From Escherichia virus TH10, in sequence record MT446388.1: a stretch of 64,000 nucleotides of DNA. One strand, given 5' to 3'. The notes beneath the pieces were generated by a model that saw only the letters and a list, made by a program, of their open reading frames with translations, made no database searches and was not told the DNA's origin. Below are positions 7,541 through 63,918 of this stretch, piece by piece; positions within the stretch are counted from its first letter, which is position 1; each line of letters begins with the position of its first letter. The position numbers and the translations under genes are program-made.

Positions 7541-8893
7541 ATGTGGAATCCAATTGTTAATGTAGATATTACATTGAACACCGCAGGAACTACAAGAGAA
7601 GGTTTTGGTTTGCCACTATTCTTAGCTTCAACAGATAACTTTGAAGAAAGAGTGCGTGGTTATACTTCCTTAACTGAAGTTGCTGAAGATTTCGATGAGA
7701 AGTCTGCTGCATATAAGGCTGCTAAACAACTTTGGAGTCAAACTCCTAAAGTAACTCAGCTTTATATTGGTAGACGTGCTATGCAGTACACTGTATCAAT
7801 TCCTGATGCCGTTACCGAAAGTACAGACTACTCAATTACTGTAGCTGTCGGTGGGGGAATGTCACAACCATTCCAGTACACCTCACAAGGTGAAGATACT
7901 GCCGAGAATGTATTACAACAGTTTAAAACACAGATTGAAGCTGACCAATCAATTAAAGATAAAGTTTCAGTCAATGTTACTGGTAGCAACGGTTCTGCCA
8001 CAATGATTATTACCAAAGCTGGTGATAATGATTTTGTGAAAGTAACAACCACAGCACAGACTGTGTATATTGCAAGCACAACTGCTGATACAGCATCAAC
8101 TGCTCTGGCAGCTATTGAAGCTTATTCTACCGACTGGTATTTCATTGCAGCAGAAGACAGAACTCAACAGTTTGTCTTAGCAATGGCTTCTGAAATTCAG
8201 GCTCGTAAAAAGATTTTCTTCACGGCTAACTCTGATGTAACAGCACTACAAGGGACAGAACTAGCTAGTGCAAATGATGTTCCAGCACAACTCTCTAAGG
8301 GTATGTACACCCGCACAGTTTGCTTGTGGCATCACACAGCAGCAGAAGACTATCCAGAGATGGCATACATTGCTTATGGTGCTCCATACGATGCAGGGTC
8401 AATTGCTTGGGGTAATGCTCAGTTGACTGGTGTAGCGGCTTCTCTACAGCCAGCTAATAAGAGACCTCTGACAAGTATTCAGAAGTCAGCTTTAGATGCG
8501 CGTCACTGTAACTTTATTGACCTTGATGGTGGTGTTCCAGTGGTTCGTAGAGGGATTACTTCTGGTGGGGAATGGATTGATATCATCCGTGGTGTTGACT
8601 GGCTAGAATCAGACCTGAAAACTTCTCTGAGAGACTTGCTAATTAACCAGAAGGGTGGTAAGATTACTTATGATGATACTGGTATTACCCGTATTCGTCA
8701 AGTCATTGAAACCTCTCTACAAAGAGCAGTCAACAGAAACTTCCTGTCATCTTACACAGTTAATGTTCCTAAAGCCTCTCAAGTTGCTTTGGCAGACAAG
8801 AAAGCTCGTATCCTGAAAGATGTTACCTTCGCAGGTATCTTAGCAGGGGCTATCTTGGATGTTGACTTGAAAGGTACAGTGGCTTACGAATAA
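7541..8893 (+). CDS. tail sheath protein (candidate)
   Basis: 450-aa ORF immediately upstream of small tube-sized ORF, chaperones and tape measure; order sheath-tube-chaperone-TMP typical of contractile tails. Confidence 0.5.
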   Translation: MWNPIVNVDITLNTAGTTREGFGLPLFLASTDNFEERVRGYTSLTEVAEDFDEKSAAYKAAKQLWSQTPKVTQLYIGRRAMQYTVSIPDAVTESTDYSITVAVGGGMSQPFQYTSQGEDTAENVLQQFKTQIEADQSIKDKVSVNVTGSNGSATMIITKAGDNDFVKVTTTAQTVYIASTTADTASTALAAIEAYSTDWYFIAAEDRTQQFVLAMASEIQARKKIFFTANSDVTALQGTELASANDVPAQLSKGMYTRTVCLWHHTAAEDYPEMAYIAYGAPYDAGSIAWGNAQLTGVAASLQPANKRPLTSIQKSALDARHCNFIDLDGGVPVVRRGITSGGEWIDIIRGVDWLESDLKTSLRDLLINQKGGKITYDDTGITRIRQVIETSLQRAVNRNFLSSYTVNVPKASQVALADKKARILKDVTFAGILAGAILDVDLKGTVAYE

Positions 8894-46631: not shown

Positions 46632-48776
46632 ATGAACAAAGTACAGATTATTAAAAAGAATGGCTCACTCGAAGAACCTGATATCAAAAAAGTTTTAGCA
46701 GCAGTCACAAAGTCAGCTAATAGGGTTGGGTATAAAGAACTCCCACCAGATGTTACTCAAGCTCTTGAGTCAGCATTTATGAGGATTCTGGTAAAGTCCA
46801 CTAAGCAGAATAATTTGCTAATTTCAGTAAATGATATTCACAGTATTGTTGAGGGTGCTTTGGCAGAAGTCAATCACGAGATTTATGAGTCTTACTCAAC
46901 ATATAGAAATTACCGTAAAGAGGTTGCTCAAAATTGGGATGAACTCTACCAGAAGACTAAAGATACACTCTTCTTAGGTGACCGTGAAAATGCTAACTTT
47001 GACAGCAGTTTAATTTCTACGAAAGGTTCAATTATCCGTGGTTACCTGACTAAAGAAATCTTTAAACAGTATCATCTAACACCAGAGGAACTTGAAGCCA
47101 TTGAGAAAGGCTTTATCTATATCCATGATTTAAGAGACCTGATTTTTGGTGGTATTAACTGTTGCCTGTTTGACATTGGTAAAGTCCTGAAAGGTGGCTT
47201 TGAAATGTCCGGCATTGAGTACTGTGAACCTAAATCTGTACTGTCAGCGTTGCAGGTTATTGGTGACGTAGTACTTTCAGCAACTGCACAGCAATTTGGT
47301 GGTTTTACTTTAGCAGAGATTGATAAGGTACTTGTACCGTATGCTAAGAAGTCTCTACGCTATCATGCTGAGAAAGCATCATCTTATGGTATTCCTAAAG
47401 AGCATTACCACAATTATGTAATGGAGCAGTTACAAATTGAATTAACTCAAGGTTTTCAGTCACTTGAAATGAAACTGAACACTGTACCTTGTAGCCGTGG
47501 TGATTTCGCATTCACAACTTTAACATTTGGTTTACTTGACTCAGACATGTCTAATGAAGACAACCGGCTACAATACATGATTGCAAACACCATTCTTGAT
47601 GTTCGCATGAATGGACAAGGTAAGAGTAAGAAGCCTGTTGTATTCCCTAAACTGGTTTATATTCATGACCAGAAGAGACACGATGAGAATATCTGTCAAG
47701 GCCAACTGTACAGTAAAGCTATTGAGTGTTGCTCTAAAGCAATGTATCCAGATTTCTTAAGCGTATCTGGTCATGGTGCTGTAGCAGAGGCTTTTGAGCG
47801 TTCTGGTAAGGTAATTTCACCGATGGGTTGCAGAGCTTTCTTATCCCCATATCTTAACGAGAATGGAGAAGAGTTCTACGTTGGTCGTGCTAACATTGGT
47901 GCTGTATCTTTGAACTTACCAATGATTTACCAGTATTCTAAAGAGAATGGCTTAGATTTCTGGAAAGAGCTTGATAAGTACCTAGAGATGATTCGCAGCT
48001 TCCACAAGAAACGCTACGAAATGATTGCTAATATGCCAGCAAGTTCTAATCCCCTTGCATTTACACAAGGTGGCCTGTATAAAGGAACTAAGAAGCCTAC
48101 TGACAGGGTTGGTTGGGATATTGTGAAATCCTTCACAGCTTCTTTTGGGGTTACTGCGCTTGATGAGCTATCTGTTCTTGCTGAAGGTAAACGACTTCAT
48201 GAAGTTGGAAGCTATAGTTTTGCATATGATGTTCTGGCATACATCAACATGAAAACTGAAGAATTTAAAAATGAAGATGGCTTCTTATATGCCGTCTATG
48301 GCACTCCAGCAGAATCACTTTGTGGAACTCAGCTAAAACAGTTCAGAGATATGTTTGGAGTTATCAAAGGTGTTTCTGATAAGGAATACTTTACAAACAG
48401 CTTCCATATGAATGTTGCAGCAGACATTACACCATTTGAGAAGCAGGACTTAGAAGAACCCTTCTTCCATATCTGTAGAGGCGGCAGAATCCAGTATGTA
48501 AGGGTAGCTAACCCAGAAAACTTGCCAGCACTTAAAAGTTGTATTACCAGAGGGATGTTGAAGGGTTTTTATCAGGGACTTAACTTTGACTTAGCAATCT
48601 GTGAACATTGTGGTAACAGACCAAAGTCAGATGTTGAAGAGTGTGAAGTTTGCCACTCACATGATATCTCTGTGATTAACAGGGTGTGCGGGTACTTGTC
48701 ATTCACAAAAATTAAAGGTCAGTCTCGAATGAATGACGCTAAGATGGCAGAAATTAAGGATAGGGTTTCTATGTAG
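46632..48776 (+). CDS. nrdD: anaerobic ribonucleotide reductase (class III)
   Basis: C-terminal zinc ribbon CEHCGN...CEVCHS followed by glycyl-radical motif RVCGYL. Confidence 0.85.
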   Translation: MNKVQIIKKNGSLEEPDIKKVLAAVTKSANRVGYKELPPDVTQALESAFMRILVKSTKQNNLLISVNDIHSIVEGALAEVNHEIYESYSTYRNYRKEVAQNWDELYQKTKDTLFLGDRENANFDSSLISTKGSIIRGYLTKEIFKQYHLTPEELEAIEKGFIYIHDLRDLIFGGINCCLFDIGKVLKGGFEMSGIEYCEPKSVLSALQVIGDVVLSATAQQFGGFTLAEIDKVLVPYAKKSLRYHAEKASSYGIPKEHYHNYVMEQLQIELTQGFQSLEMKLNTVPCSRGDFAFTTLTFGLLDSDMSNEDNRLQYMIANTILDVRMNGQGKSKKPVVFPKLVYIHDQKRHDENICQGQLYSKAIECCSKAMYPDFLSVSGHGAVAEAFERSGKVISPMGCRAFLSPYLNENGEEFYVGRANIGAVSLNLPMIYQYSKENGLDFWKELDKYLEMIRSFHKKRYEMIANMPASSNPLAFTQGGLYKGTKKPTDRVGWDIVKSFTASFGVTALDELSVLAEGKRLHEVGSYSFAYDVLAYINMKTEEFKNEDGFLYAVYGTPAESLCGTQLKQFRDMFGVIKGVSDKEYFTNSFHMNVAADITPFEKQDLEEPFFHICRGGRIQYVRVANPENLPALKSCITRGMLKGFYQGLNFDLAICEHCGNRPKSDVEECEVCHSHDISVINRVCGYLSFTKIKGQSRMNDAKMAEIKDRVSM

Positions 48777-48783
48777 CATACAA

Positions 48784-49341
48784 ATGAATTACGAACTAAT
48801 ATATAATGCAATTATTAAGAAGGCACGTTCTGAAAGGGGTGTGCCTCTTACATACTACAAATGTCAAGGTAAGGGTTATGAAAGACACCATATCATACCA
48901 GTATGTCTAGGTGGCGATAAAATTAGTGGAGATAATATTGCTTTACTTACACCTAGAGAGCATTATATAGCTCATAAATTACTGGTTAAGATGTATCCAA
49001 ACAATCATAAGTTATGGTTTGCATGGAACAGGTTAGCTCATGATGGCCTAGATAGGAAAATATCATCCAGAGACTATGAAAAGGTAAGGGCTTTGAACTC
49101 GAAAGCTCTATCTATTGTGAATAAAGGTAGGGTTTTCACTGAAGAACATCGAAGACGATTAGGAGAATCTCAAATAGGCAATACAAAATCAAAAGGTTGT
49201 AAAAGGTCTATAGAAACAAGGAAGAAGATGTCAGAAGCCGGAAAAAAGCCAAAGAAAAAGAAAACTTGCCCTCATTGTGGTATGACTGGTGGTGCTGGTA
49301 ACATGACTCGATATCATTTTGACAATTGTAAGAAAAAATAA
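48784..49341 (+). CDS. HNH homing endonuclease inserted between nrdD and nrdG
   Basis: YERHHIIPVCLGGDKISGDNIALLTPREHYIAH HNH motif; C-terminal CPHCG zinc knuckle; ORF-track version (48733) overlaps nrdD 3' end. Confidence 0.6.
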   Translation: MNYELIYNAIIKKARSERGVPLTYYKCQGKGYERHHIIPVCLGGDKISGDNIALLTPREHYIAHKLLVKMYPNNHKLWFAWNRLAHDGLDRKISSRDYEKVRALNSKALSIVNKGRVFTEEHRRRLGESQIGNTKSKGCKRSIETRKKMSEAGKKPKKKKTCPHCGMTGGAGNMTRYHFDNCKKK

Positions 49342-51891: not shown

Positions 51892-52162
51892 AGAAAAGTG
51901 GGAGATTTTACCATTAGTCAGTGAAGGTGGTAATGGTTGTGAGATGTACATGATACGTGGTCATGTTCCAGAACCAATTGCGCTTGAGATGGTAAACAAC
52001 TTTACAGATGGTTCTTACAAAGACTTAGGAGAGCCAACTATAAAGCATCAATGGGTAAAACCTGTACCAGACAGCACAGGTAACTGTAGTGTACTTTACC
52101 ACGTTGTAGACCCTGTAAAATGCAAATCTGCAATGGCAGTAACAAGCGTAACCTTTGATTGA
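51884..52162 (+). CDS. hypothetical protein
   Basis: 92-aa ORF. Confidence 0.4.
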   Translation: MAKEKWEILPLVSEGGNGCEMYMIRGHVPEPIALEMVNNFTDGSYKDLGEPTIKHQWVKPVPDSTGNCSVLYHVVDPVKCKSAMAVTSVTFD

Positions 52163-52173
52163 GAGACAAAACT

Positions 52174-53055
52174 ATGAAAACTGTTATTGAAGCCGTCGTC
52201 ACCGCACAAGAGAAATTCTTCCACACAGAAAAATTTAATATCATCCAATTCCCATCTGGAGAAATTGGTGGAAACTTCTCTGAAGATTTTGTTAAGTTTA
52301 CTGAGCGTAATGCTGGTAAGATTGACAATGTTATACTTACTGTGCAGGGATATGATAAAGATACACTGTTTGCATTAGCTTTGGCTAAGGATGCCGTTGA
52401 CAGTCTTGTTCCCCAGAAATCAGCGATGAAAACCGTTGTTTTCGGGTTCTTACCAAATGCTCGATATGACCGCCACATGTTCAAAGGTGATGCAGCAGCA
52501 CTGAAAGTCTTTGCCAACCTAGTTAATGCAATGGGCTTTGATGCAGTATGTGCTCTTGACCCTCACAGCAATGTTGCAGAAAACCTATTTAAGTGCTTTC
52601 AGAGCATGAAGCAAAAAGATGTGGCAGTACACTTTGCAAGTGACCCACGCATTGATTTCTTGGTAGCCCCAGATGCAGGTGCAGCTAAGAAGACTGAAGA
52701 GACTGCTAAAGAGGTGGATAAACCATATATCACAATGTCTAAAATGCGTAACCTTAAGACTGGTGAAATTACTGGTATGCGAATCCTTGATGATGTTGAT
52801 TTGACCGATAAAACTGTTATGATTCTCGACGATATCTGTGATGGCGGTCGAACCTTCATAGAAGCAGCTAAACATCTTCGTGAAGCAGGTGCAAAACGTG
52901 TGGAACTCTATGTAACTCATGGCATTTTCTCTAAAGGTGTTGAAAGCTTACTTGACAATGGTATTGACCATATCTACACTACAAACACTTTAGGTGAAGC
53001 TAAAGACCGTGGCTTAACACATTACGGTCAAGTGACTGTAGCAACCATTGATTAG
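52174..53055 (+). CDS. prs: ribose-phosphate pyrophosphokinase-like protein (PRPP synthetase family; ADPR-pyrophosphokinase possible)
   Basis: PRPP-binding loop VMILDDICDGGRTF; ATG 52174 after gagaga RBS. Confidence 0.75.
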   Translation: MKTVIEAVVTAQEKFFHTEKFNIIQFPSGEIGGNFSEDFVKFTERNAGKIDNVILTVQGYDKDTLFALALAKDAVDSLVPQKSAMKTVVFGFLPNARYDRHMFKGDAAALKVFANLVNAMGFDAVCALDPHSNVAENLFKCFQSMKQKDVAVHFASDPRIDFLVAPDAGAAKKTEETAKEVDKPYITMSKMRNLKTGEITGMRILDDVDLTDKTVMILDDICDGGRTFIEAAKHLREAGAKRVELYVTHGIFSKGVESLLDNGIDHIYTTNTLGEAKDRGLTHYGQVTVATID

Positions 53056-53063
53056 GTAACAGT

Positions 53064-53555
53064 ATGAATAAGGGTTATTTTGAAAGATACCTAATATATG
53101 AACCAGATACAGGTTTATTAATTTGGAGAGTAACCCTTTGCAGTACCGCTATTGCTGGTAATGTGGCTGGCACAAGGTCTAAGAAGGGTTATACCCAAGT
53201 CCAGATAAATAAGAAGAGGTACTATGCACATAATATTGCATGGATTATGTCTGGAGGTGAGATACCAAGTGGATATGAGATAGACCACATAGACCTTGAT
53301 AAATCTAATAATAAGTTGGATAATTTAAGACTTAGCACAAAGTCACAAAATCAGAGGAATAGGGGTATATACAAGAATAATAAAACTGGTGTGAAGGGTG
53401 TAAGTTTTTGTAAACAAACAGGTCTTTACAAAGCAAGAGTCATGCTTTACCATAAAGAATACTTTTGTGGAAGATTTAAAACGGTAGAAGAAGCAAAAGA
53501 AGCTGTAATTAAAAAGCGAATAGAACTTCATGGTGAGTTTGCAAGACATAACTAA
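53064..53555 (+). CDS. HNH homing endonuclease with AP2-like C-terminal domain
   Basis: YEIDHIDLDKSNNKLDNLRLSTKSQN HNH motif; C-terminal EEAKEAVIKKRIELHGEFA shared with 30227..30742. Confidence 0.7.
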   Translation: MNKGYFERYLIYEPDTGLLIWRVTLCSTAIAGNVAGTRSKKGYTQVQINKKRYYAHNIAWIMSGGEIPSGYEIDHIDLDKSNNKLDNLRLSTKSQNQRNRGIYKNNKTGVKGVSFCKQTGLYKARVMLYHKEYFCGRFKTVEEAKEAVIKKRIELHGEFARHN

Positions 53556-53571
53556 GAGAGAGAGATAAAAT

Positions 53572-55353
53572 ATGAGTAAGTCACTTTACGCAGTACCAGC
53601 AGGTCTTAATGCAGATGCTTACAAGGCATCACATATATATCAGTATCCAGATGCTACGCAATATCTTATGTTGAACCTGACACCACGCAGTGATAAATGG
53701 TTTAACAGCCCCTTAGCAATTGACGGTGTAGTGGCTTTTGGTATTCAACGTTTTGTTAAAGATTACTTGATAGACCACTGGAATGCCACTTTCTTTGAAC
53801 GTGATAAAAGAGAAGCCATTGATGAAATCTTAGAAGTCATGAATGGTGTTCTGGGTAAAGATGCTATCGGTCGAGAGCATTGGGAAGCACTTCACGACTT
53901 AGGTTATCTACCAGTTGAAGTATACGCTGTAGAAGAAGGCACAGTTGTTCCAATGCGTGTCCCGATGATTGTCTTTCAGAACACTGTTTCAGGTTTTCAT
54001 TGGGTAGCAGGTTATCTGGAAGATGCTTTCTCTGCTGAAATTTGGAAGGCTTGCACCATTGCAACTATTGCATTGCATTACAAACGCATCTGTAAGAAGT
54101 GGGCTGACCTTACTTGTGACAATGACTTACATTTACCTTATCAGTGCCATGATTTTGCTATGCGTGGTATGTCCGGCTTTACTGATGACGCATTTAACGC
54201 TGTAGGTCACTTAACCAGCTTTAAAGGGACTGATAGCTTCCCTGCTGTATACACGGCTAAACGAATCTATGGACAGTCCTACCCAATCTCTGATATTGGT
54301 AGTTCTGTACCAGCCACTGAGCACTCTGTAATGTGTGCAAACATTGCTTGGGAAGGTGGTAATGAGTTGATTGAAGAAGAAAGACGCTTTAAAGGTGAGT
54401 TACAAACCTTCCGTCGTTTCTTAACAGAAACTTACCCAACAGGTATTGCAAGCATTGTTTCAGATACTTATAACTTCTGGAGAACTGTGTCAGAAATCTT
54501 ACCAGCACTCCGCAAAGAAATTATGGAACGTGACGGCAAACTGGTAATTCGTCCTGACTCTGGAGACCCTGTACATATTGTCACAGGTTATAAAGCAATC
54601 CACTTAGAGTGTGCTAAGAAGGCTTATTACGAACACCTAAGCAAGCTGGAAGCCAGTGACACAATGTTGAATGCTGTCCTGAACATGAAGCTTGAGAACA
54701 TCAACTATGGTATTGCTGGATGGCTACTGTCAGAAGGCTACGAGATGGTTGTTGACAGAGAAGACTTTGAAGTTGCTGATACAGTGATGTTGAAAAATGC
54801 TTATATGGTTGGTTCTGCAAACGTTGTAACACGTCCTGTAGCTGAGATTGATGGAGCTATTAAGACACTGTACAACATCTTTGGGGGAACTATTAACTCT
54901 AAAGGCTTTAAAGTACTGGATGAACACATTGGCCTTATTTATGGTGACTCTATCACACTGGAACGTGCAAACGAAATCCTGAAGCGTCTGTATGAAATGG
55001 GTTTTGCAAGCTCTAACGTAGTGTTTGGCGTAGGCTCTTACACTTACCAGTACATGACTCGTGACACCTTTGCATTTGCTGTTAAAGCAACTCTTGCAAG
55101 CATTGGTGGTAAAGAGATTATGCTTGCAAAAGACCCTAAAACAGATAGTGGTGTTAAGAAGTCTGCTTTTGGTGGTGTAGCACCTATGTGGGATGGTGAT
55201 AAGTTGAAAGCTGTAGATGGCTATGGATTCCAGAGCTTTGCAGATGTACTTGAACATCCAGCTTGTGCTCTACGTTTAGTCTTTAGTGACTCTGAGCAGT
55301 ACGGTTACACATCTCTTGGTGATATTCGAAATAATATTGACAAGCAGCTTTAA
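53572..55353 (+). CDS. nadV: nicotinamide phosphoribosyltransferase-like protein (NAMPT family)
   Basis: N-terminal NADAYKASHIYQYPDATQY block matching the NAMPT start; 593 aa, longer than typical NAMPT. Confidence 0.7.
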   Translation: MSKSLYAVPAGLNADAYKASHIYQYPDATQYLMLNLTPRSDKWFNSPLAIDGVVAFGIQRFVKDYLIDHWNATFFERDKREAIDEILEVMNGVLGKDAIGREHWEALHDLGYLPVEVYAVEEGTVVPMRVPMIVFQNTVSGFHWVAGYLEDAFSAEIWKACTIATIALHYKRICKKWADLTCDNDLHLPYQCHDFAMRGMSGFTDDAFNAVGHLTSFKGTDSFPAVYTAKRIYGQSYPISDIGSSVPATEHSVMCANIAWEGGNELIEEERRFKGELQTFRRFLTETYPTGIASIVSDTYNFWRTVSEILPALRKEIMERDGKLVIRPDSGDPVHIVTGYKAIHLECAKKAYYEHLSKLEASDTMLNAVLNMKLENINYGIAGWLLSEGYEMVVDREDFEVADTVMLKNAYMVGSANVVTRPVAEIDGAIKTLYNIFGGTINSKGFKVLDEHIGLIYGDSITLERANEILKRLYEMGFASSNVVFGVGSYTYQYMTRDTFAFAVKATLASIGGKEIMLAKDPKTDSGVKKSAFGGVAPMWDGDKLKAVDGYGFQSFADVLEHPACALRLVFSDSEQYGYTSLGDIRNNIDKQL

Positions 55354-59584: not shown

Positions 59585-60133
59585 ATGAAGAAATTGATTC
59601 TAGGTTTGTGCTTAATGTTTACAGCACACTTATCTTATGCAGTTGACTGCCCAGAGCTATCAATTAGCCAAAAAGTAAACATGTTAAAAGCTTACCAGTA
59701 TGGTGAGAATAACATGGGCAAAGGTTGGGGTATCACTCTAGCTGCTATAGCCTTACAAGAGTCAGAGTTAGGTCTGAAGGTAGAGAATAAAAAGACACAT
59801 GATTATGGTATTTTCCAGAATCACTTGAAGACTGTTGTAAAGCGTAACAAAATTAGCCCTAATGTGGCTAAAAAGAAACTCTTAAGAGACTTTGATTATG
59901 CTGCGAAGGAAACTCACAAAGAACTTGAGTTTTGGACAAAGGTGCATGGTCAGCCAAAGTCAAAGAAGACTTTACAAAAAGTTTTAGCATCATATAATGC
60001 TGGGTATTCGTACAAAATCCCTAAAGCTAAGAAATATTCTCAAGATGTCTATAACAATATGAAAGTGATTGCTCAATGTGAATTTGCAACAAACATTTCT
60101 AAGGTAAACCATGAAAAAATTAAGAAAGTCTGA
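59585..60133 (+). CDS. secreted lytic transglycosylase-like protein (SLT domain with signal peptide)
   Basis: Signal peptide MKKLILGLCLMFTAHLSYA; SLT-like blocks LQESELG, DYGIFQ, SYNAGYS. Confidence 0.5.
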   Translation: MKKLILGLCLMFTAHLSYAVDCPELSISQKVNMLKAYQYGENNMGKGWGITLAAIALQESELGLKVENKKTHDYGIFQNHLKTVVKRNKISPNVAKKKLLRDFDYAAKETHKELEFWTKVHGQPKSKKTLQKVLASYNAGYSYKIPKAKKYSQDVYNNMKVIAQCEFATNISKVNHEKIKKV

Positions 60134-60806
60134 TGAAGTACTGTGCCATGCTTATGACTTGCACCCTCATGAGTTAGGTCTTGATTCCTGTGTATGGACT
60201 CCAGAACAGTGCAGGGATTTTGAAGATACTGCAAGAGAAGTTGTATGTTCACTTGAAGAGTTCCATACATCAGAACCAATTGTGAGCGTTGTGGACAAAG
60301 AGACTGGACAAACTATAGGTGTAAGGCGTGATAGTTTAGTCATAGTCAATAAAGACCTTGTAGAAAAAGGTAACCTCATCTTAGCAGATATTGATGGCGT
60401 TCTTACAAATTTTAATCACGAAGATTGCTCAACGGAATTGACTGATGGGTCATTCTCACAGTACACTAATCTTCTTGATTCTGTAAGAGCAAAACCAACA
60501 TATGTTTTCAACATTATTGATGCAATTGCAAATCATGCAGCAGTTGGACTCTTGACAGCAAGAGGTGAATCTCAGAGAATACCTACTGAGATGTTTTTAA
60601 GGCACAATATAGAGCATGATTACTTGCTTTTTATGCGTGGTTTTGGAACTAACTCTATAAGTGCAGAAAGTTTGAAAGTGAGGATGATTCAGTCTTGCAT
60701 TCTTCCTTACTTTAATATAGTATGCTTTATAGAAGATACAGAGAATAATGTTCAGAAGGTAAACAGAGTCCTTCCACACATTAAAACTATGTTAGTTAAA
60801 CATTGA
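60111..60806 (+). CDS. HAD-superfamily phosphatase-like protein (candidate nucleotidase)
   Basis: HAD motif I LADIDGVLT; later LLTARGE and FIEDTENN. Confidence 0.4.
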   Translation: MKKLRKSDEVLCHAYDLHPHELGLDSCVWTPEQCRDFEDTAREVVCSLEEFHTSEPIVSVVDKETGQTIGVRRDSLVIVNKDLVEKGNLILADIDGVLTNFNHEDCSTELTDGSFSQYTNLLDSVRAKPTYVFNIIDAIANHAAVGLLTARGESQRIPTEMFLRHNIEHDYLLFMRGFGTNSISAESLKVRMIQSCILPYFNIVCFIEDTENNVQKVNRVLPHIKTMLVKH

Positions 60807-62654: not shown

Positions 62655-62855
62655 ATGGCTGACTTCTGCAAAGACTGTTCTATTGAAATGTTCGGACGTG
62701 ATACAGGTGACTTAAAAGGTCTTATCACTGAAGATGACTTTAAAGCTGGTTATGCAATGCCAGTAATCTGTGAAGGTTGTGGGTGCATCTGGGTAGACCA
62801 TGAAGGGCAACGTGTAAAACCTTCTGAAGATAAAGAATCTTGGGAGAGATGTTAA
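62655..62855 (+). CDS. small cysteine-rich protein (zinc-binding candidate)
   Basis: CKDC ... CEGCGC cysteine pattern in 66 aa. Confidence 0.4.
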   Translation: MADFCKDCSIEMFGRDTGDLKGLITEDDFKAGYAMPVICEGCGCIWVDHEGQRVKPSEDKESWERC

Positions 62856-62856
62856 G

Positions 62857-63642
62857 ATGGGTATTGTAAAAATCATCAATGGTGATATCTTTAATGCTTT
62901 TGATAAAGGCAAGTTTGATGTCATTGGACACGGTTGCAACTGTATGAACTTAATGGGTGCAGGTATTGCTGACAAGATTTCTAAACTTTACCCAAAAGCC
63001 TATGAAACTGACACAGAAGTTTACTTGTACGCAGGTGGCATTGGACATAAACCCTGTGAGGATTTACTAGGTAATATCTCTGTAGCACGTTTAGAACAAG
63101 GCCGTATAGCTAACCTCTACACTCAGCTTAAAACTGGTAAAGATGCCAGATACAGTGCTTTAGAGTCATCTTTGAAGAAACTTAACAGGTACTGCGAAGT
63201 CAATCAGTTGAAGAAAGTTGGTTTACCTATGATTGGTGCAGGTATCGGTGGACTTGACCATCAAGCTGTCACCGTTATCATCAATCAGGTAATGAAAAGC
63301 GTAGACGTTTACTTATATGTCTATGAAGGTGAGATGTACCACAAGTTACGCTCAGGTTGGAAGAACTATTGTGAACCAGAATATTTTGCAGGTATAGCAG
63401 TGTTCACAGATAATGCAGTTACCCTCTTCAGACGTAGAAAGGGTAAGATACATCAAAGTAACCCTCCGGTTGAAAAGATGTCTCTAAGTAACGCTCTAGT
63501 TACCCGCCTGTCAAAGAGCAATAATCGTATTGCTGTGACATTCGGTAGTGATGCAGATGCTTACATTTATGCGAGAACTGATGAGAATGTTAAGGCAATC
63601 TTCTCATCACCAGAAGTTACCTTCTTAGACGCAAAGAACTAA
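62857..63642 (+). CDS. macro-domain protein (ADP-ribose binding/hydrolase candidate)
   Basis: INGDIF...FDVIGHGCNCMNLMGAGIADKI and later VGLPMIGAGIGGLD match the macro-domain NAAN..GGGV and PxISTG blocks. Confidence 0.5.
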   Translation: MGIVKIINGDIFNAFDKGKFDVIGHGCNCMNLMGAGIADKISKLYPKAYETDTEVYLYAGGIGHKPCEDLLGNISVARLEQGRIANLYTQLKTGKDARYSALESSLKKLNRYCEVNQLKKVGLPMIGAGIGGLDHQAVTVIINQVMKSVDVYLYVYEGEMYHKLRSGWKNYCEPEYFAGIAVFTDNAVTLFRRRKGKIHQSNPPVEKMSLSNALVTRLSKSNNRIAVTFGSDADAYIYARTDENVKAIFSSPEVTFLDAKN

Positions 63643-63715
63643 GAAACTGTGTAGAATATACACAATAGACTAAGCCTTTCTTATCTGGTAAATTTTTCAG
63701 GTAAGGGGGGCTTTT

Positions 63716-63894
63716 TCATTTCAGAATTGTGCAGGTAAAAGTCTGGACAGAAATCTGTGGAGAGAATTTTGAACTCCAAAGGGAAAATTCATTTTCAAAC
63801 TGTGCAGGTAATCTCCAAAGAGCTTTTTCATTTTCAAAACGTGCAGACCCCGCTCAGGTCGGGCAAGAAAAATCATTTTAGAATTGTGCAGGTA
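63716..63894 (+). repeat. four direct repeats of ~22 bp (consensus TCATTTTCARAAYTGTGCAGGTA)
   Basis: Copies at 63716-63737, 63789-63810, 63828-63847, 63873-63894. Confidence 0.8.
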
Positions 63895-63918
63895 GGTTTT
63901 TATAGACAGCCAGACCAA

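What the first reader, a model, noticed from the sequence alone, without database searches (positions are those of the whole stretch)
62857..63642. Macro-domain protein: possible ADP-ribose processing or reversal of ADP-ribosylation
The N-terminal 160 aa carry macro-domain signature blocks (GDIF, N-x-x-L-M-G-A-G-I-A, G-L-P-M-I-G-A-G-I-G-G). A phage macro domain could remove ADP-ribose modifications (DarT-type DNA ADP-ribosylation or protein ADP-ribosylation) or process ADPR generated by NADase defence. That would be functionally linked to the NAD+ module 8 kb upstream. The ~100-aa C-terminal extension has no motif I recognise.
Basis: partly seen in the sequence, partly recalled or inferred. 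Interest (0 to 1): 0.6.

Follow-up and report, generated by a model that had tools for sequence, protein, structure and literature searches.

The report
Phage macrodomain, likely anti-DarT enzyme
This early gene of a Felix O1-like phage encodes a genuine macrodomain enzyme related to phage T4's recently named anti-DarT factor AdfM, so it most likely strips defensive ADP-ribose marks off phage DNA, and it carries an extra 100-residue tail domain of unknown role found only in this phage subfamily.

Summary

The window is a Felixounavirus and the gene is wV8 gp012 ('phosphatase'). Its macro domain is 34% identical to T4 Tk.4 and falls in the same PHROG. A 2025 preprint named Tk.4 AdfM because a T4 knockout becomes sensitive to DarTG2.

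DarG is the best curated-family hit, but only for the macro part. The TARG1/DarG catalytic Lys position holds an invariant Gln (Q90), as in SCO6735, a thymidine-ADP-ribose DNA hydrolase. H25 and N28 are also conserved.

The most likely function is an orphan-antitoxin enzyme that removes DarT2-type ADP-ribose from phage DNA. This is inferred, not shown.

The C-terminal ~100 aa form a real domain (dN/dS 0.18-0.44; 28 of 28 orthologues intact) confined to Ounavirinae. No sequence or fold relatives were found, so its role is unknown.

The proposed link to the NAD+ module is unsupported. Verdict: a new variant of a known kind, of moderate interest.

The parts
62857..63642 (+). Complete CDS, 261 aa plus stop; orthologue of wV8 gp012 ('phosphatase' / 'macro domain protein')
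   Evidence: 28 of 28 orthologous ORFs intact
62857..63327 (+). Macro domain, aa 1-157 (TARG1/DarG/Poa1p-like; same PHROG as T4 Tk.4/AdfM)
62929..62970 (+). H25-G-C-N28-C-M-N-L-M-G34-A-G-I-A38: active-site His/Asn plus first Gly-rich (phosphate-binding) loop. H25 aligns with TARG1 H32; N28 aligns with TARG1 S35, the position of DarG N22 / SCO6735 N27 / PhiKZ AdfM N23
   Evidence: invariant columns in A1; mapping; roles of these residues
63112..63126 (+). N86-L-Y-T-Q90 motif. Q90 occupies the position of the catalytic Lys of TARG1 (K84) and DarG (K80), i.e. a Gln as in SCO6735 Q85
   Evidence: equivalence K84 = K80 = Q85 stated in PMC9411070
63235..63258 (+). G127-A-G-I-G-G-L-D134: second Gly-rich loop. 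G131 sits where TARG1 has D125
63328..63639 (+). C-terminal extension, aa 158-261: linker helix (158-167), then six beta-strands (179-239) and a helix (243-249). Orphan domain restricted to Ounavirinae macro proteins
   Evidence: AF2; no relatives found; dN/dS 0.18-0.44; Felix-type and divergent-clade versions are homologous
62842..62848 (+). Shine-Dalgarno-like GGGAGAG, 8 nt before the ATG
   Evidence: read directly from the sequence
63672..63713 (+). Intrinsic-terminator-like hairpin plus T-run ending the transcription unit
   Evidence: the equivalent position is annotated as a terminator in wV8
62655..62855 (+). Upstream 66-aa CxxC...CxxC mini-protein whose stop lies 1 nt before the macro ATG. 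Possible partner; its function and any link are untested
   Evidence: conserved and coupled in 27 of 27 Felix/Moogle-type loci; no Pfam hit

Best explanation
The gene encodes an AdfM-type 'orphan antitoxin': a phage early protein whose N-terminal macrodomain hydrolyses ADP-ribose from thymidine bases on single-stranded phage DNA. DarT2-type toxins of host DarTG2 defence systems place that mark, and removing it lets replication proceed. Shown here: the macro fold, homology to T4 Tk.4/AdfM and to DarG macrodomains, conservation of the His/Asn/Gln/Gly-loop active-site set, purifying selection, and the conserved position downstream of rIIA/rIIB. Inferred: the substrate (T-ADPr on DNA), the catalytic route (water activation positioned by N28/Q90 as proposed for SCO6735, not a Lys-Schiff base as in TARG1) and the biological role. 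The C-terminal beta-rich domain is a lineage-specific accessory module. Its variable charge and the lack of invariant polar residues suggest a binding or scaffolding role rather than a second enzyme. Its target is unknown.
Against: No Ounavirinae protein of this family has been tested, and no paper on it was found. The evidence for T4 AdfM is genetic and comes from a preprint; its enzymology is itself inferred. Identity to Tk.4 is only 34%, and macrodomain substrate specificity can shift between relatives. The DarG/TARG1 catalytic Lys and the TARG1 Asp are absent. The DarG HMM score (49 bits) is far below the equivalog cut-off of 250. The equivalence with SCO6735 residues is transitive, through TARG1, not a direct alignment. 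The role of the C-terminal domain is unexplained.
Confidence: 0.6

Rival explanations
1. It reverses ADP-ribosylation of a different macromolecule. Candidates are RNA (for example mRNA-targeting ADP-ribosyltransferase defence toxins such as CmdT) or proteins modified by host or phage ADP-ribosyltransferases. In this reading the C-terminal domain provides target recognition.
For: TARG1, the best PDB sequence match (E 2e-11), acts on proteins. SCO6735 acts on both DNA and proteins. The AdfN paper notes that such counter-defences may also detoxify RNA ADP-ribosylation. An added binding domain would fit a macromolecular target.
Against: The only homologue with a phenotype (T4 Tk.4) maps to DarTG2, a DNA-modifying system. 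The best curated family is DarG, not a protein-ADPr hydrolase. MacroD-type catalytic motifs are absent: Ala38 replaces the Asp, and the second loop has no aromatic residue (direct reading, judged against established MacroD motifs).
Confidence: 0.15
2. It is a small-molecule enzyme, as its database names suggest: an ADP-ribose-1''-phosphate phosphatase or an O-acetyl-ADP-ribose deacetylase (Poa1p-like). It might feed ADP-ribose derivatives into the phage NAD+ salvage genes.
Against: The Poa1p sequence match covers only the N-terminal third, and DarG/TARG1 score better over the whole domain. The 'phosphatase' name derives from a motif label and was never tested (note). The macro and Nampt genes are not co-distributed in phages and are not in one transcription unit. 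No Tpt1/KptA-type source of Appr>p was looked for or seen.
Confidence: 0.12
3. It is a non-catalytic ADP-ribose-derivative binder (a sponge or reader), for example sequestering ADPR-derived immune signals such as the Thoeris cyclic ADPR isomers.
Against: The residues needed for catalysis in relatives (H25, N28, Q90) are invariant, which points to an enzyme. Its closest relatives are hydrolases. There is no resemblance to known Thoeris sponges; this last point rests on background knowledge and was not tested here.
Confidence: 0.05

Closest known systems
T4 Tk.4 = AdfM (anti-DarT factor Macrodomain; bioRxiv 10.1101/2025.11.20.689424)
   Same: Phage-encoded stand-alone macrodomain in the same PHROG (phrog_335), 34% identical over the whole domain. 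Same HGCNC...MG(A/S)G, NLYTQ and IGAGIG motifs, with Gln at the catalytic-Lys position. DarG is the top curated-family hit for both.
   Different: T4 AdfM is 155 aa, macro only. This protein has an extra ~100-aa C-terminal domain. It sits in a different phage family (Ounavirinae vs Straboviridae) and a different gene neighbourhood (downstream of rIIA/rIIB, not next to vs/tk). There is no phenotype data for this protein.
DarG2 antitoxin of DarTG2 (T. aquaticus / M. tuberculosis; PDB 5M31, 5M3I; NCBIfam NF048014)
   Different: Catalytic K80 is replaced by Gln. The C-terminal domain is shorter and shows no match to the DarG profile beyond position 155 or to any PDB structure. There is no adjacent darT gene. 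The score is far below the equivalog cut-off.
PhiKZ gp104 AdfM (Cell Rep 2026, PMC13309987)
   Same: Phage macrodomain acting as an orphan antitoxin against DarTG2. The enzymatic removal of T-ADPr shown for it is the activity proposed here.
   Different: PhiKZ AdfM retains the DarG-type Lys (K78) and is imported into the phage nucleus. It was not compared directly with this protein here.
SCO6735 of Streptomyces coelicolor (PDB 5E3B; PMC9411070)
   Same: TARG1/DarG-class macrodomain that hydrolyses thymidine-linked ADP-ribose on DNA without the catalytic Lys, using His24/Asn27/Gln85/Gly128. These match H25/N28/Q90/G129 here by transitive alignment.
   Different: A bacterial DNA-damage-regulated protein with a longer mobile loop and no C-terminal domain. 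It was not a significant direct sequence hit for this family's profile at E<0.01, though it was for T4 Tk.4.
Human TARG1/OARD1 (PDB 4J5R, 2LGR)
   Different: The catalytic dyad K84/D125 is replaced by Q90/G131.

Membership tests
Macro domain (Pfam PF01661) | Profile match above the Pfam gathering score | tested here: met
   30.8 bits against a cut-off of 22, aa 25-141
Macro domain (Pfam PF01661) | Three-layer alpha/beta/alpha macro fold | tested here: met
AdfM (T4 Tk.4-type phage anti-DarT macrodomain) | Sequence homology to T4 Tk.4 and same protein family | tested here: met
   34% identity, E 5e-23; both in phrog_335
AdfM (T4 Tk.4-type phage anti-DarT macrodomain) | Shared active-site residues (HGCNC Asn, NLYTQ Gln, Gly loops) | tested here: met
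   Columns invariant across Ounavirinae, phiEa104 and T4 Tk.4
AdfM (T4 Tk.4-type phage anti-DarT macrodomain) | Required for phage growth on DarTG2-expressing hosts | not testable with these tools
   Needs a phage knockout and plaque assays; no published data found for Felix O1-like phages
AdfM (T4 Tk.4-type phage anti-DarT macrodomain) | Removes thymidine-linked ADP-ribose from ssDNA | not testable with these tools
   Biochemical assay needed
DarG antitoxin (NCBIfam NF048014 equivalog) | Full-length score above the equivalog cut-off | tested here: not met
   49.4 bits against a cut-off of 250; only profile positions 4-155 of 338 match
DarG antitoxin (NCBIfam NF048014 equivalog) | C-terminal DarT-binding domain | tested here: not met
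DarG antitoxin (NCBIfam NF048014 equivalog) | Encoded next to a darT toxin gene | tested here: not met
   Neighbours are small phage early genes; none is annotated as, or gave a Pfam hit to, an ADP-ribosyltransferase
DarG antitoxin (NCBIfam NF048014 equivalog) | Catalytic Lys (K80) | tested here: not met
   Invariant Gln (Q90) at the equivalent position
TARG1/OARD1 | Catalytic dyad Lys84/Asp125 | tested here: not met
   Q90 and G131 at those positions
SCO6735-type Lys-less T-ADPr DNA hydrolase | His24/Asn27/Gln85/Gly128 active-site set | tested here: inconclusive
   H25/N28/Q90/G129 match by transitive alignment through TARG1; no direct alignment to 5E3B was obtained
Poa1p-like ADP-ribose-1''-phosphate phosphatase | Homology over the whole domain, and phosphatase activity on Appr-1''-p | tested here: inconclusive
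MacroD-type hydrolase | N-x6-GG[VLI]-D and G-[VIA]-[YF]-G catalytic motifs (established knowledge) | tested here: not met
   The first loop ends in Ala38, not Asp; the second loop is G-I-G-G with no aromatic residue

The most novel reading that the evidence does not exclude
The orphan C-terminal domain is a second, non-enzymatic anti-DarT module, for example a DarT2-binding inhibitor or an ssDNA/replisome-targeting domain. It would have evolved independently of the DarG C-terminal domain, making this protein a convergent two-pronged DarG mimic (eraser plus stoichiometric inhibitor) with a previously undescribed fold. Its faster evolution, and its replacement by an unalignable tail of the same length in Kolesnikvirus, would then reflect an arms race with variable host toxins.
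Probability: 0.15. Interest if true: 0.6.

Novelty: new variant of a known kind. Interest (0 to 1): 0.38.

Why it matters
If the prediction holds, Felix O1-like phages carry a built-in counter to DarTG2 DNA ADP-ribosylation. These phages are widely used for Salmonella and E. coli typing, biocontrol and therapy, so this bears on their host range. It would also extend the newly described AdfM class from T4 and jumbo phages to a third major myovirus lineage. It adds a second example of the Gln-type (Lys-less) catalytic variant to study. The conserved orphan C-terminal domain is a defined, testable unknown. Working out whether it binds DarT, DNA or a phage partner could reveal how orphan antitoxins become specialised for their phage. 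The AdfN work raised that same question for T4.

Tried and rejected
(1) I first read K95 as the equivalent of the TARG1/DarG catalytic Lys. Renumbering TARG1 (S35, K84, D125 verified) showed that K84 aligns with the invariant Q90. K95 is variable (K/R/H, and Pro in T4) and was dropped.

(3) C-terminal domain as a fused copy of a small gene next to T4 tk.4 (Tk.3), or related to AdfA (T4 61.2): hhalign probabilities 0.1-0.2%. Rejected.

(4) C-terminal domain as a basic nucleic-acid binder or an acidic DNA mimic: pI ranges from 4.75 to 9.34 across homologues, so there is no consistent charge signature.

(5) Searches for the C-terminal domain elsewhere all returned only the family itself: phmmer against 1.8 billion representatives, a profile search of 5.8 billion proteins, BFVD Foldseek, PHROGs and Pfam. 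AFDB50 was unavailable.

(6) C-terminal region as non-functional read-through: rejected, because 28 of 28 ORFs are intact and omega is 0.18-0.44.

(7) Literature searches for DarTG data on Felixounavirus, Bas63 or the Felix O1 macro domain found nothing. The 'AdfM' term search was mostly noise.

(8) ICP1 AdfB was not compared, because its sequence was not retrieved.

Full report
OBSERVATION. Window 62857-63642 (+) is an intact ATG-initiated ORF of 261 codons plus stop. The opposite strand is closed. A GGGAGAG Shine-Dalgarno-like element lies 8 nt upstream. The ATG follows the stop codon of the preceding 66-aa ORF by one base. A strong terminator-like hairpin follows at 63672-63713, at the position annotated as a terminator in phage wV8.

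IS IT A MACRO DOMAIN? Yes, and well beyond chance.
- Pfam Macro (PF01661) scores 30.8 bits against a gathering cut-off of 22.
- PHROG phrog_335 matches aa 1-260 at E 7e-110.
- A profile of 17 family members hits human TARG1/OARD1 (E 2e-11), the M. tuberculosis DarG macrodomain 5M3I (2e-8) and the T. aquaticus DarG macrodomain 5M31 (4e-7).
- An AlphaFold2 model built on that alignment is confident (mean pLDDT 86.6, pTM 0.87).

WHERE IT COMES FROM. The window is a Felixounavirus, about 94% nucleotide identity to wV8 and relatives. The gene is wV8 gp012, annotated variously as 'phosphatase', 'macro domain protein' or 'O-acetyl-ADP-ribose deacetylase'. It closes a block of small same-strand genes downstream of rIIA and rIIB. 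Full-length relatives occur in about 257 phage records. All named ones are ~88-kb Ounavirinae: Felixounavirus, Mooglevirus, Si3-like and SUSP2. More divergent two-domain homologues (33-42% identity) sit at the same locus, downstream of rIIA, rIIB, an SLT-like gene and a HAD_PNKP-like gene, in metagenomic Ounavirinae-like contigs. The macro part alone has homologues in 2,793 phage records, including the T-even gene tk.4.

WHAT THE MACRO DOMAIN MOST LIKELY DOES.
- The domain is 34% identical to T4 Tk.4 over its whole length (E 5e-23), and both proteins fall in phrog_335.
- A November 2025 preprint found tk.4 as the single transposon-sequencing hit for T4 growth on a DarTG2 host. It confirmed this with a clean knockout and renamed the gene adfM, anti-DarT factor Macrodomain. 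The authors inferred, but did not show, enzymatic removal of ADP-ribose from DNA.
- Independently, PhiKZ gp104, a DarG2-like macrodomain also named AdfM, was shown to remove thymidine-linked ADP-ribose from an oligonucleotide and to be required on DarTG2 hosts.
- Phage 'orphan antitoxins' have a precedent in the NADAR protein AdfN, which acts against DarTG1.
- In curated libraries the best hit of the window protein is the DarG antitoxin: NCBIfam E 4e-13 and PADLOC E 9e-14, macro part only. DarG is also the only NCBIfam hit of T4 Tk.4.

ACTIVE SITE. TARG1 numbering was verified through S35 and D125. TARG1 H32, S35, K84 and D125 align with H25, N28, Q90 and G131 of this protein, both in the HMMER alignment and in an independent MAFFT alignment. 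H25, N28 and Q90 are invariant in all 17 Ounavirinae-type homologues. N28 and Q90 are also conserved in Kolesnikvirus phiEa104 and in T4 AdfM. So this phage clade lacks the catalytic Lys of TARG1 (K84) and DarG (K80) and has Gln instead. That is the situation in Streptomyces SCO6735, a TARG1/DarG-class macrodomain that hydrolyses DarT-made thymidine-ADP-ribose. There, Gln85 (stated to be equivalent to K84/K80), Asn27, His24 and Gly128 are needed for activity. The mapping to SCO6735 is transitive, not direct. MacroD-type motifs are absent: Ala38 replaces the catalytic Asp, and the second loop has no aromatic residue. I therefore assign the protein to the T4-type (Gln) AdfM group, working like DarG or SCO6735 on DNA. 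It is not a DarG equivalog: it scores 49 against a cut-off of 250 bits, has no DarG C-terminal domain, has no adjacent darT and has no Lys.

THE C-TERMINAL EXTENSION. Residues 158-261 are predicted as a linker helix followed by six beta-strands and a helix. The high pTM of the full-length model (0.87), together with the linker helix being confident in it but below pLDDT 50 when the domain is modelled alone, suggests that the domain packs against the macro domain.

It is a real domain. All 28 orthologous ORFs examined are intact. dN/dS is 0.18-0.44, against 0.06-0.17 for the macro part. Amino-acid identity between the Felix and Moogle types is 48%, against 77% for the macro part. The Felix-type and the divergent-clade extensions are homologous (hhalign 96%, E 4.5e-9). 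The equally long tail of the Kolesnikvirus protein cannot be aligned with them.

Nothing else resembles it:
- phmmer against 1.8 billion representatives finds only the family.
- A profile search of 5.8 billion proteins finds no new architecture.
- There are no Pfam, NCBIfam, PADLOC or foreign PHROG hits.
- BFVD returns only the family's own member.
- It is unrelated to T4 Tk.3 and to AdfA.

Only P174, G179 and Y236 are (near-)invariant, and net charge varies from acidic to basic. That argues for a binding or scaffolding module rather than a second catalytic site, and against a simple DNA-binding or DNA-mimic signature. Natural variants exist that lose either half: P0008 is a frameshift after the macro domain, and P0042 is an in-frame deletion between the two GAGI loops that keeps the tail. 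Their biological status is unknown.

THE NAD+ LINK. The Prs-like and Nampt-like genes are real. However, they are separated from the macro gene by rIIA, rIIB, about ten genes and two terminator-like sites. Nampt homologues occur in 2,028 phage records, only 191 of them named Escherichia phages. The macro homologue occurs in 2,793 records, 993 of them Escherichia phages. Nampt is frequent in Staphylococcus, Mycobacterium and Listeria phages, which are not among the ten genera listed for macro carriers. Co-residence in Ounavirinae therefore gives no evidence of a functional link.

VERDICT. The thing is a new variant of a recently defined kind, an AdfM-type phage macrodomain carrying an Ounavirinae-specific orphan domain. 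Confidence in the anti-DarT2 DNA de-ADP-ribosylase reading is about 0.6. The rivals are other macromolecular ADP-ribose erasure (0.15), small-molecule Appr1p/OAADPr processing (0.12) and non-catalytic binding (0.05). Interest is moderate, because the enzyme class is no longer surprising. The untested prediction for a widely used phage group and the conserved orphan domain are still worth a bench test.

Noticed in passing
window 62655-62855 (+): A 66-aa ORF with a CxxC(5-8)...CxxC(39-42) zinc-ribbon-like pattern. Its stop lies 1 nt before the macro ATG. It is conserved and coupled in all 27 Felix/Moogle-type loci. In the divergent locus L003 the same slot (7810-8001) holds an unrelated 4-Cys mini-protein (CPKC...CNEC). 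No Pfam hit. It may be a partner of the macro protein.
   Followed up: partly
window 63720-63900 (+): The motif TGTGCAGGTA (once CGTGCAGAC) recurs 3-4 times at roughly 40-65-nt spacing just downstream of the terminator. This matches the region where wV8 has annotated direct repeats (DR_1 to DR_9) in front of small early ORFs. They may be phage-specific promoter or regulatory repeats.
   Followed up: no
window 52159-55353 (+): NAD+ salvage genes: a Prs-like phosphoribosyltransferase (298 aa) and an unusually long Nampt-like protein (593 aa), with an HNH homing-endonuclease ORF (53064-53555) between them. An NrdD gene (46632-48776) is followed by a NUMOD3/HNH-like ORF (48733-49341).
   Followed up: partly
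L005 2998-3780 (Erwinia phage phiEa104, Kolesnikvirus): The orthologous macro protein is also 260 aa, but its C-terminal 105 aa cannot be aligned with the Felix-type tail (hhalign probability 0.1%). The tail has been replaced or has diverged beyond recognition while keeping its length.
   Followed up: partly
proteins P0042 and P0008 (relatives): P0042 (166 aa, seen on ~88-kb contigs) carries an in-frame deletion joining the MGAGI and IGAGI loop motifs. This removes the macro core but keeps the C-terminal domain. P0008 (179 aa, 15 member sequences) is frameshifted after the macro domain and loses the tail. These could be natural loss-of-function alleles or assembly artefacts.
   Followed up: no
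H98, Pseudomonas phage PPSC2 NC_073678.1 78318-80039: The feature under a full-length Nampt match is annotated 'macro domain protein'. This is either a mis-annotation or an adjacent or fused macro gene. It was not examined.
   Followed up: no
window 60111-60806 (+): A 231-aa protein. Its wV8 orthologue is annotated 'polynucleotide kinase', and the syntenic gene in related loci has weak HAD_PNKP Pfam hits, but the window protein gave no Pfam hit at E<=0.01. Its relation to RNA or DNA end repair is unverified.
   Followed up: no
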